Notes: generated from the sequence alone by a model not told the origin. Shown: positions 3,088 through 3,767, counted from the stretch's first letter. The stretch: DNA of 4,292 nt from a virus (IMGVR_UViG_2681813226_000012); one strand, 5' to 3'. Program-made: numbers and translations.

Positions 3088-3462
3088 ATGGCAAAAGATC
3101 TGAAAACACTGGCGCTGGCCAGACTGTCGGGGTTCCGTCATAAAACGGTGAAGGTGCCGGAATGGAGAAATGTCAGCGTGGTGCTGCGGGAGCCTTCGGC
3201 AGAGGCCTGGTATCTGTGGCAGGAAGTGCTCAATGGTGATGGAGAGGATGACGATACCCTGTCGGTGGTGGCGAAAACCCGCCGTAACCTGGAAGCGGAT
3301 GTGACGCTGTTCTGCGATGTCCTGTGTGATACTGACCTGCAACGGGTGTTCACTCCGGACGACCGTGAGCAGGTGCTGGCCGTCTATGGTCCGGTACATG
3401 CCCGGTTGCTGCGTCAGGCACTGGAACTGATCGCTGATGCAGAGTCGGCCAGAAAAAAGTAG
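3088..3462 (+). CDS. Phage tail assembly chaperone (lambda gpG-like)
   Basis: 124-aa ORF starting 6 nt after the major tail stop, with an acidic stretch (NGDGEDDD). It ends ...ARKK* on the slippery heptamer, sits immediately before the tape measure gene, and the -1 frame is open across its 3' end. Confidence 0.8.
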   Translation: MAKDLKTLALARLSGFRHKTVKVPEWRNVSVVLREPSAEAWYLWQEVLNGDGEDDDTLSVVAKTRRNLEADVTLFCDVLCDTDLQRVFTPDDREQVLAVYGPVHARLLRQALELIADAESARKK

Positions 3463-3767
3463 CCCGCCCGGAAATTCGCTTTCTGATGCGACTTGCGCTC
3501 CGTCTGGGGCGCACCTTATCCGAACTGCGGCACAGCCTGAGTGCGAGCGAGGCGATGATGTGGATGGAGTTCGACAGGGTATCCCCGCTGGGTGATGAGC
3601 GCGGGGATATCCGTAATGCACAGATCGTGAAAGCGGTTTTCGGGGCACAGGGGATGAATGTTGCACTGAAGGACGCCATGCTCTGCTGGGGCGAGGATGA
3701 GGATAAGCCGGAGGTGGATCCGTTTGCGGCGCTGGAAGACGCGCTGAGCCTTGCAGCAATGTCATAA
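3088..3767 (+). CDS. Predicted G-T-like tail assembly chaperone fusion made by a programmed -1 ribosomal frameshift at 3453-3459
   Basis: The G ORF is in frame 1 and the downstream ORF (annotated 3486-3767) is in frame 0. Frame 0 is open from 3438 (after a TGA at 3435-3437) to the TAA at 3765-3767, so it overlaps the last 25 nt of G. A -1 slip on A_AAA_AAG would give ...ESARKK-VARPEIRFLMRLALRLGRTLSELRH..., a product of about 226 aa. This matches the conserved G/GT arrangement of long-tailed phages. Confidence 0.65.
3453..3459 (+). promoter_or_regulatory. Slippery heptamer A_AAA_AAG (X_XXY_YYZ), the candidate -1 frameshift site
   Basis: The zero-frame codons AAA (3454-3456) and AAG (3457-3459) are the last two sense codons of the G-like ORF, followed by TAG at 3460-3462. 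The -1 frame continues without a stop into the T-like ORF. Confidence 0.65.

What the first reader, a model, noticed from the sequence alone, without database searches (positions are those of the whole stretch)
3435..3767. Programmed -1 frameshift site A_AAA_AAG joining the gpG-like and gpT-like ORFs
The heptamer occupies the last two sense codons of the G-like ORF, and the -1 frame is open from 3438 to 3767. The frame relationship (frame 1 to frame 0) is exactly what a -1 slip requires. This reproduces the conserved G/GT chaperone frameshift of long-tailed phages with a specific, testable slip site. The downstream ATG at 3486 could also start an independent T-only product, but that is not the usual arrangement.
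Basis: partly seen in the sequence, partly recalled or inferred. Interest (0 to 1): 0.45.

Follow-up and report, generated by a model that had tools for sequence, protein, structure and literature searches.

The report
Known phage tail-chaperone G/GT frameshift site
This is the ordinary, already catalogued and reporter-tested -1 ribosomal frameshift site (A_AAA_AAG) that lets a lambda-like prophage of E. coli O157:H7 make a small amount of a fused G-T tail assembly chaperone alongside the abundant G protein.

Summary
The G-like ORF (3088-3462) ends AGA AAA AAG TAG. The heptamer A_AAA_AAG (3453-3459) is in the right phase. The -1 frame is open from 3438 to the TAA at 3765-3767 and encodes a lambda-T-like domain.

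- G is an HK97-type tail assembly chaperone (PF06222; PDB 2OB9), and T is PF06223.
- The pair sits between the major tail gene and the tape measure gene.
- In 51 of 53 divergent Enterobacterales loci, T lies in the -1 frame.
- In all 105 distinct G-T sequences, an x_xxA_AAG site sits at the junction.
- The 26 nt before the annotated T start (ATG 3486) evolve as -1-frame codons, and that ATG has no ribosome-binding site.
- No conserved RNA stimulator was found.

It is not new. The region is 100% identical to ECs1801/1802 of Sakai prophage Sp9. Sharma et al. 2014 list this as a true frameshift cluster. Antonov et al. 2013 cloned a 75-nt cassette identical to window 3433-3507 and measured 7% -1 frameshifting in E. 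coli.

What remains is a database annotation gap: T is still called as a separate gene.

The parts
3088..3462 (+). G gene: tail assembly chaperone, 124 aa, the product of normal (0-frame) translation; includes the TAG stop
   Evidence: ORF list and translation. Pfam PF06222 Phage_TAC_1, E=2.3e-61, full length. PHROG 344 tail assembly chaperone. PDB 2OB9 'Tail assembly chaperone', E=1.8e-46. Annotated as phage tail assembly chaperone in RefSeq.
3453..3459 (+). Slippery heptamer A_AAA_AAG, with the P-site codon AAA and the A-site codon AAG in the G frame
   Evidence: It is the only copy in the window and its phase was checked against the G ORF. It is conserved as x_xxA_AAG in all 105 distinct related G-T sequences, 85 of them exactly A_AAA_AAG. 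It lies in the cassette that gave 7% frameshifting in Antonov 2013.
3460..3462 (+). 0-frame TAG stop of G, directly abutting the heptamer
   Evidence: Sequence. Most relatives, roughly two thirds of the divergent loci, have a stop immediately after AAG.
3435..3437 (+). TGA stop in the -1 frame, the upstream limit of the stretch in which a -1 shift is productive (3438-3459)
   Evidence: Translation of 3435-3770. In several relatives this stop lies immediately 5' of the heptamer, which pins the shift to the heptamer itself (last column = 7).
3459..3767 (+). T segment read in the -1 frame after the slip (102 aa, VARPEIRFLM...AAMS, then TAA). Together with 3088-3459 it gives the 226-aa GT fusion.
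   Evidence: Pfam PF06223 Phage_tail_T, E=5.9e-19. PHROG 337 matches from residue 4, and PHROG 14766 (224-position profile) spans both G and T. Phage lambda T belongs to the same Pfam family.
3460..3485 (+). Stretch annotated as intergenic in public records, which in fact behaves as -1-frame coding sequence (ARPEIRFL)
   Evidence: In 28 divergent sequences none has a stop in the T frame. Mean entropy at codon positions 1/2/3 is 0.95/0.93/1.53. Pro4, Phe8 and Leu9 are conserved in 27/28, 27/28 and 24/28. The length is fixed, since the alignment has no gaps.
3486..3488 (+). ATG used as the T start in public annotation; most likely just an internal Met of GT
   Evidence: Annotated as a start in NC_049944 and by PGAP. 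The best anti-SD duplex is only -3.5 kcal/mol, no better than the median random ATG in the window (-3.8). Real starts in the window score -5.8 to -12.8. It is replaced by CTG or CTC in 2 of 28 relatives.
2366..3082 (+). Context: major tail tube protein with a C-terminal Ig-like domain, the expected binding partner of the T domain
   Evidence: PHROG 158 major tail protein, E=8.5e-118; Pfam tail-tube and Ig hits; PGAP annotation.
3820..4292 (+). Context: 5' part of the tape measure protein gene (runs off the window), the expected binding partner of the G domain
   Evidence: PF20155 TMP_3, E=4.6e-17; PHROG 339, E=4.4e-67; annotation.

Best explanation
This is a programmed -1 ribosomal frameshift of the phage G/GT type. 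Most ribosomes translating the tail assembly chaperone gene G (3088-3462) read ...AGA AAA AAG and terminate at TAG 3460, giving the 124-aa G protein. A minority (about 7% in a reporter) slip back one base on A_AAA_AAG (3453-3459). The two tRNA-Lys re-pair from AAA-AAG to AAA-AAA, and decoding continues with GTA GCC CGC... to the TAA at 3765. This yields a 226-aa GT fusion, ...SARKK-VARPEIRFLM....

By analogy with lambda and HK97, G and the G part of GT coat the tape measure protein (gene starting at 3820). The T part recruits the major tail protein (2366-3082), and the fixed G:GT ratio set by the slip rate is what tail assembly needs.

Shown here or in the literature:
- the anatomy of the site;
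- homology of both domains;
- conservation of the frame relation and the slip site;
- -1-frame coding constraint upstream of ATG 3486;
- 7% frameshifting of this exact sequence in an E. coli reporter.

Inferred: that the event is ribosomal rather than transcriptional, the roles of G and GT in assembly, and the in-phage ratio.
For: 1. Anatomy is as described.
2. G is PF06222 (E=2e-61) and T is PF06223 (E=6e-19). PHROG 14766 covers G and T in one profile. G matches PDB 2OB9 'Tail assembly chaperone' at E=2e-46.
3. The gene order is major tail, G, T, tape measure.
4. In 53 divergent Enterobacterales loci (44-64% G identity), T is in the -1 frame in 51.
5. All 105 distinct G-T sequences carry x_xxA_AAG at the junction (85 A_AAA_AAG, 5 G_GGA_AAG, 4 G_GAA_AAG, 11 others). 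In several, a -1-frame stop lies directly 5' of the heptamer, leaving no other place to shift.
6. The A-site codon is AAG in 28 of 28 representative sequences, against 33% AAG among other Lys codons of the same genes.
7. 3460-3485 has -1-frame codon periodicity, conserved Pro/Phe/Leu, no stops in 0 of 28 sequences, and no indels.
8. ATG 3486 has no SD.
10. Window 3060-3830 is 100% identical to Sakai Sp9 ECs1801/1802. Sharma 2014 lists this as cluster A_AAA_AAG_25, 'tail assembly chaperone; [true]'.
11. Antonov 2013 Suppl. Table S2 reports a cassette identical to window 3433-3507 giving 7% +/- 0.79 frameshifting. A relative with G_GGA_AAG and no A-run gives 6%.
Against: - No direct detection of the GT protein from this prophage in its native context was found in the searched literature (one search found nothing specific).
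- The reporter assay does not by itself separate ribosomal from transcriptional slippage.
- Met at 3486 is conserved in 26 of 28 relatives, so an additional T-only product is not excluded.
- The bare A_AAA_AAG heptamer gave only 0.29% in a different reporter (Sharma 2014), and no stimulator explaining 7% was identified.
- Public records annotate T as a separate gene.
Confidence: 0.93

Rival explanations
1. G and T are two separate genes. T (93 aa) is initiated at ATG 3486, for instance by termination-reinitiation of ribosomes that stop at TAG 3460 only 23 nt upstream. The heptamer would be incidental, and any fusion would be a minor by-product.
For: This is how all inspected public records annotate the locus. 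Met at this position is conserved in 26 of 28 relatives. The short stop-to-start distance would allow coupling.
Against: - ATG 3486 has no SD: -3.5 kcal/mol, which is the median for random ATGs in the window.
- The 26 nt upstream evolve as -1-frame codons with conserved Pro/Phe/Leu, no stops and no indels.
- The -1 frame relation holds in 51 of 53 loci, and the AAG codon in 28 of 28.
- 2 of 28 relatives lack the ATG.
- Lambda T, of the same Pfam family, has no Met at the equivalent position.
- The exact cassette, which includes this ATG, gave 7% fusion product. The Phage_TAC cluster is not among the clusters for which Antonov 2013 reported internal initiation as well.
Confidence: 0.04
2. The fusion arises by transcriptional slippage. 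RNA polymerase adds one extra A in the A-run 3453-3458, giving an mRNA subpopulation in which G and T are in frame.
For: The slip site is a homopolymeric A-run. Some relatives have 8 consecutive As. Reporter westerns cannot separate the two mechanisms. Assemblies with altered junction sequence give in-frame fusions (P0001, P0004).
Against: - The run here is only 6 As. Antonov 2013 state that programmed transcriptional realignment typically needs homopolymers of 8 nt or more.
- Relatives keep the same -1 arrangement with G_GGA_AAG, G_GAA_AAG or x_GCA_AAG, which have runs of only 3-4 As.
- The G_GGA_AAG cassette frameshifts as well (6%) as the A6 cassette (7%).
- The strict AAG in 28 of 28 sequences fits the tRNA-Lys rule for ribosomal slippage, not a polymerase requirement.
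Confidence: 0.03

Closest known systems
G/GT tail assembly chaperone frameshift of phage HK97 and HK97-like phages (e.g. HK544), and the identical locus ECs1801/ECs1802 of E. coli O157:H7 Sakai prophage Sp9
   Same: - The G family is the same: PF06222, and PDB 2OB9 at E=2e-46.
- G is 63% identical to HK544 G, whose record carries a joined CDS annotated 'programmed frameshift'.
- Window 3060-3830 is 100% identical to the Sakai Sp9 locus.
- That locus is listed as cluster A_AAA_AAG_25 '[true]' in Sharma 2014, and its cassette was measured at 7% in Antonov 2013.
   Different: The HK544/HK97-type sequence uses G_GAA_AAG five codons before the G stop. The window uses A_AAA_AAG directly abutting the stop. 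There is no difference at all from the Sakai Sp9 locus.
Phage lambda G / G-T programmed -1 frameshift (Levin, Hendrix & Casjens 1993; Xu, Hendrix & Duda 2004, 2013, 2014, as reviewed in PMC5009743)
   Same: - The position is the same, between the major tail gene (V) and the tape measure gene (H).
- The T domain is the same Pfam family, PF06223, starting about 28 residues after the slip.
- Both use a -1 shift on an X_XXA_AAG heptamer at the 3' end of G.
- The frameshift is low-level and sets a G:GT ratio (30:1 in lambda).
   Different: - The heptamer is G_GGA_AAG in lambda and lies 5 codons before the G stop.
- The G proteins belong to different Pfam families (PF06894 against PF06222) and show no BLASTP similarity.
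- Lambda has no Met at the position equivalent to 3486.
E. coli dnaX tau/gamma -1 frameshift
   Same: It uses the same slippery heptamer, A_AAA_AAG, and the same tRNA-Lys-based slippage in the same host.
   Different: dnaX reaches about 50% with an upstream SD-like element and a downstream hairpin, and it yields a shorter product. Here no conserved SD or structure was found (Sharma Table S4 'N' for SD). Efficiency is about 7%, and the product is longer.

Membership tests
Phage G/GT tail assembly chaperone frameshift (Xu, Hendrix & Duda 2004 class) | Two ORFs located between the major tail protein gene and the tape measure protein gene | tested here: met
   Major tail gene 2366-3082, G 3088-3462, T to 3767, tape measure gene from 3820.
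Phage G/GT tail assembly chaperone frameshift (Xu, Hendrix & Duda 2004 class) | The second ORF overlaps the end of the first in the -1 frame and lacks convincing initiation signals of its own | tested here: met
   The -1 frame is open from 3438. T is in the -1 frame in 51 of 53 divergent loci. ATG 3486 has no SD.
Phage G/GT tail assembly chaperone frameshift (Xu, Hendrix & Duda 2004 class) | A slippery sequence, in phase, within the overlap and conserved among relatives | tested here: met
   A_AAA_AAG at 3453-3459. x_xxA_AAG in 105 of 105 distinct relatives. AAG in 28 of 28 against a 33% background.
Phage G/GT tail assembly chaperone frameshift (Xu, Hendrix & Duda 2004 class) | The sequence between the slip site and the first ATG of the downstream ORF is under coding constraint in the -1 frame | tested here: met
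   Codon-position entropy 0.95/0.93/1.53; Pro4, Phe8 and Leu9 conserved; stops in 0 of 28 sequences; no indels.
Phage G/GT tail assembly chaperone frameshift (Xu, Hendrix & Duda 2004 class) | A frameshifted fusion product is actually made at a low, fixed rate | not testable with these tools
   Not testable here. The literature reports that a cassette identical to window 3433-3507 gave 7% +/- 0.79 in a GST-MBP reporter in E. coli (PMC3711429, Suppl. Table S2). The native-context ratio is unmeasured.
Phage G/GT tail assembly chaperone frameshift (Xu, Hendrix & Duda 2004 class) | G and GT are both required for tail assembly and are absent from the virion | not testable with these tools
   Known for lambda (review PMC5009743). 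No data were found for this prophage.
Pfam PF06222 Phage_TAC_1 (HK97-type tail assembly chaperone) | Full-length profile match above the gathering score | tested here: met
   205.6 bits against a cut-off of 25, residues 1-124 on profile positions 1-124 of 124. PDB 2OB9 at E=1.8e-46.
Pfam PF06223 Phage_tail_T (lambda T-like domain) | Profile match above the gathering score in the -1-frame segment | tested here: met
   68.7 bits against a cut-off of 25.9, residues 28-97. Lambda T matches the same family at residues 29-104.
dnaX-type stimulated A_AAA_AAG frameshift | Upstream SD-like element and downstream stable hairpin at 5-9 nt, conserved | tested here: not met
   - The 121-nt fold has z=0.23.
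- RNAalifold finds no consensus pairs in 28 sequences.
- The hairpin at 3494-3511 is 35 nt away and shows no covariation.
- The weak hairpin at 3465-3490 (-7.3 kcal/mol, z=-1.0) is not conserved.
- Sharma Table S4 records no conserved SD.

The most novel reading that the evidence does not exclude
The 75-nt native cassette gave 7% frameshifting (Antonov 2013), whereas the bare A_AAA_AAG heptamer gave 0.29% in a different reporter (Sharma 2014). This gap might reflect an unrecognised local stimulator rather than a difference between assays. The most plausible candidate is the 0-frame stop codon directly abutting the heptamer, which is present in most relatives. Under a 'shifty stop' mechanism, tRNA-Lys would slip from AAG to AAA in the P site while the A site waits for a release factor. 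This would also explain relatives whose P-site codon cannot re-pair (x_GCA_AAG followed by TAA). The weak hairpin at 3465-3490 is a less likely candidate.
Probability: 0.25. Interest if true: 0.3.

Novelty: already known. Interest (0 to 1): 0.1.

Why it matters
Scientifically it adds little. The G/GT frameshift has been a textbook case since 1993/2004, and this exact sequence was catalogued in 2014 and reporter-tested in 2013. Its practical value is for annotation. This module occurs in 1246 of 5426 complete E. coli genomes and in 92 records of the phage collection, mostly Stx-converting phages. Every record inspected still calls T as a stand-alone gene with an unsupported start, either ATG 3486 or, in Sakai, ATG 3558, instead of a joined G-T CDS with ribosomal slippage. 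Correcting this would give the true 226-aa GT protein for proteomics and for studies of tail assembly in Stx phages.

Tried and rejected
- Downstream stimulatory RNA structure. The 121-nt region around the site folds no better than shuffles (z=0.23). RNAalifold on 28 divergent sequences gives no consensus pair. The recurrent hairpin GCGCUCC-GUCU-GGGGCGC (3494-3511) lies 35 nt from the heptamer, is broken in 7-12 of 28 sequences, shows no covariation, and is explained by the conserved ALRLGR codons. It is also truncated in the cassette that still gave 7%. The proximal hairpin at 3465-3490 is weak and not conserved.\n- Upstream SD-like stimulator. None is visible in 3436-3452, and Sharma Table S4 also scores 'N'.\n- Independent T initiation, rejected as the main route.\n- Transcriptional slippage, rejected as the main route.\n- Direct similarity to lambda G or T. 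BLASTP finds none, and only the Pfam profile links the T domains.\n- NCBIfam has no model for either part.\n- A literature search for Stx-phage-specific reports of this frameshift found nothing.\n- In-frame fusion proteins in the protein database (P0001, P0002, P0004, P0101) were examined. They look like deletions or homopolymer-length differences in single contigs, not evidence about expression.\n- Structure prediction was not run, because it could not change the verdict.

Full report
**What is in the sequence**

The window is the head-tail joining and tail module of a lambda-like prophage. Profile searches identify these genes in order:

| Coordinates | Gene |
|---|---|
| 1-757 | 3' end of a portal gene |
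| 837-1163 | head-tail adaptor |
| 1173-1523 | head closure protein |
| 1520-1966 | HK97 gp10-like protein |
| 1963-2307 | tail terminator |
| 2366-3082 | major tail protein with an Ig-like C-terminal domain |
| 3088-3462 | G-like ORF |
| 3459-3767 | T-like segment in the -1 frame |
| 3820 onward | start of the tape measure gene |

Window 3000-3900 is 100% identical to Stx2-converting phage Stx2a_WGPS8. It occurs at 95% identity or more in 92 phage records and in 1246 of 5426 complete E. coli genomes.

**Check of the observation**

The G ORF ends GCC AGA AAA AAG TAG. AAAAAAG occurs once in the window, at 3453-3459. It is phased A_AAA_AAG, so it covers the last two sense codons. In the -1 frame a TGA lies at 3435-3437, and the frame is open from 3438 to TAA 3765-3767.

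The heptamer alone is not statistically remarkable, with 0.34 expected per window. Only 6 in-phase positions lie in the productive stretch, so the expectation there is about 2e-4.

**What it is**

G matches Pfam PF06222 (Phage_TAC_1) over its full length at E=2e-61. The -1-frame segment matches PF06223 (Phage_tail_T) at E=6e-19. PHROG 14766, a 224-position profile, matches G on positions 1-122 and the T segment on positions 125-222, so fused annotations of this pair exist. G matches the solved structure 2OB9 'Tail assembly chaperone' at E=2e-46. From memory, 2OB9 is the HK97 chaperone; the chain's C-terminus ...AREKSQP matches the HK97-like sequences seen here.

Lambda T belongs to the same Pfam family as the T segment. 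Lambda G belongs to a different family, PF06894, and has no BLASTP similarity to the window's G.

**Comparative evidence**

I collected 53 loci from different Enterobacterales species (44-64% identity in G) and 80 viral contigs.

- T is in the -1 frame relative to G in 51 of the 53 genome loci. The two exceptions (L040 and L046, the latter from a Candidatus Symbiopectobacterium symbiont genome) look like indel-damaged copies.
- All 105 distinct G-T nucleotide sequences with the -1 arrangement carry x_xxA_AAG exactly at the junction:

| Junction heptamer | Count |
|---|---|
| A_AAA_AAG | 85 |
| G_GGA_AAG | 5 |
| G_GAA_AAG | 4 |
| A_GCA_AAG | 5 |
| G_GCA_AAG | 4 |
| A_GAA_AAG | 1 |
| G_GTA_AAG | 1 |

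- In several lineages a -1-frame stop codon lies immediately 5' of the heptamer, so the heptamer is the only place where a productive shift can occur.
- The A-site codon is AAG in 28 of 28 representative divergent sequences. AAG makes up only 33% of the other Lys codons in the same G genes.
- This fits the E. coli rule that X_XXA_AAG motifs are the most shift-prone because of tRNA-Lys (Sharma 2014).

**The annotated T start**

Public records call T as a separate gene. The start is ATG 3486 in NC_049944 and in PGAP records. Sakai ECs_1802, a 210-nt CDS, corresponds to a start at window 3558.

ATG 3486 has no Shine-Dalgarno sequence. Its best anti-SD duplex is -3.5 kcal/mol, compared with a median of -3.8 for all 116 ATGs in the window and -5.8 to -12.8 for the other gene starts.

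The 24 nt between the Val codon at the junction and this ATG (3462-3485, within the 26-nt stretch 3460-3485 that records leave intergenic) behave as -1-frame codons across 28 divergent sequences:
- There are no indels.
- No sequence has a stop in the T frame. All 28 have one in the G frame, and 4 have one in the third frame.
- Mean entropy at codon positions 1/2/3 is 0.95/0.93/1.53.
- Pro4 (27/28), Phe8 (27/28) and Leu9 (24/28) are conserved.

Two of the 28 have CTG or CTC in place of the ATG. In lambda the homologous motif (SFALKLAREMGR, against RFLMRLALRLGR here) follows the slip site directly and has no Met.

**Stimulators**

None is supported.
- The surrounding 121 nt fold no better than shuffles (z=0.23).
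- RNAalifold finds no consensus pair.
- The hairpin at 3494-3511 is 35 nt downstream, shows no covariation, and is explained by the conserved ALRLGR codons.
- The weak hairpin at 3465-3490 (-7.3 kcal/mol) is not conserved.

Most relatives have the G stop codon directly after AAG. This is compatible with, but does not prove, a contribution from a 'shifty stop'.

**Prior knowledge**

- Window 3060-3830 is 100% identical to the ECs1801/ECs1802 region of prophage Sp9 of E. coli O157:H7 Sakai.
- Sharma et al. 2014 (PMC4066793, Table S4) list cluster A_AAA_AAG_25, represented by ECs1801, as 'tail assembly chaperone; [true]', meaning an expected genuine case. They link it to GeneTack cluster 10.
- Antonov et al. 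[quoted passage not shown] The cassette in their Supplementary Table S2 is identical to window 3433-3507 and gave 7% +/- 0.79. A relative with G_GGA_AAG gave 6%.
- The Phage_TAC cluster is not among the clusters for which they also report internal initiation.
- HK544, with a G that is 63% identical, carries a joined CDS annotated 'programmed frameshift'.
- The general mechanism and the function of G and GT in lambda are reviewed in PMC5009743.

**Mechanism and rivals**

The best-supported mechanism is tandem -1 slippage of two tRNA-Lys on A_AAA_AAG at a few percent efficiency. It yields G (124 aa) and GT (226 aa) in a fixed ratio.

Transcriptional slippage is unlikely to be the main route. The A-run here is only 6 nt. 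Relatives keep the same arrangement with A-runs of only 3-4 nt. The G_GGA_AAG cassette shifts as efficiently as the A6 cassette.

Independent initiation or reinitiation at ATG 3486 is disfavoured by the coding signature upstream of it and by the absence of an SD. It cannot be fully excluded, because the Met is conserved in 26 of 28 sequences.

**Verdict**

The feature is already known and has been experimentally tested in a reporter. The only residual issues are the missing slippage annotation in public records and the unexplained gap between 7% for the native cassette and 0.29% for the bare heptamer in another reporter. Interest is low.

Noticed in passing
window 1-757, G-run 725-730: The portal gene is frameshifted. 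The window has G6 where the intact Sakai Sp9 portal (ECs_1795) has G7, a 1-nt homopolymer deletion that changes and truncates the last ~38 residues. Both the WGPS8 record ('portal protein (pseudogene)') and PGAP ('frameshifted') flag it. This suggests a defective prophage, or a sequencing artefact shared by several assemblies.
   Followed up: partly
window 107-225 and 269-387: There is a 119-nt direct repeat (90% identity, spacing 162 nt) inside the C-terminal part of the portal gene. It encodes a duplicated peptide...MLEQMVKEAVSHIPVPRDGRDYDPDVLQKAV....
   Followed up: no
window 3777-3803: A terminator-like hairpin (AAAACCTGC-TGTG-GCAGGTTTT) followed by a T-run lies between the end of T and the tape measure gene. 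It is flanked by an A-run, so it is potentially bidirectional. HK544 has an annotated rho-independent terminator at the equivalent place. Late-operon antitermination would presumably read through it.
   Followed up: partly
window 2327-2345 (+T-run to ~2350): A second terminator-like hairpin lies between the tail terminator gene and the major tail gene, just upstream of the strong SD of the major tail gene. HK544 has an annotated stem-loop just after its major tail gene.
   Followed up: no
window 2237 vs 2366: The start of the major tail gene is annotated inconsistently. NC_049944 uses GTG 2237 (281 aa, overlapping the previous gene and the terminator). PGAP uses ATG 2366, which has a strong AGGAGG SD at -10.3 kcal/mol. 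The ATG 2366 start looks right.
   Followed up: partly
L018, L020, L023, L027, L028, L037, L039, L050, L052, L055 (Klebsiella, Raoultella, Pantoea, Erwinia and related genomes), junction about 1860-1895: Relatives with x_GCA_AAG or G_GTA_AAG directly followed by TAA. The P-site tRNA cannot re-pair in the -1 frame, so only an A_AAG tetramer plus an abutting stop remains. These may shift by single-tRNA (P-site) slippage at a 'shifty stop', or may rely more on independent T initiation; some have extra in-frame ATGs just downstream.
   Followed up: partly
L003-L005, L017, L138 (HK97-like, e.g. HK544 locus 1063-1069): The HK97-type slip site is G_GAA_AAG in the G frame (CGG GAA AAG). It is not a perfect X_XXY_YYZ heptamer: the P-site tRNA-Glu would re-pair to GGA with a central G:U pair. 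The HK544 record still annotates a programmed frameshift here.
   Followed up: partly
P0001, P0002, P0004 (metagenome and SRA-assembly proteins); L094: Single-contig in-frame G-T fusions arise from a 12-nt deletion or from differences in homopolymer length at the A-run. One viral contig (L094) has a -1 frame that runs on for 318 codons after a recombination within T. These are probably assembly errors or defective prophages.
   Followed up: no
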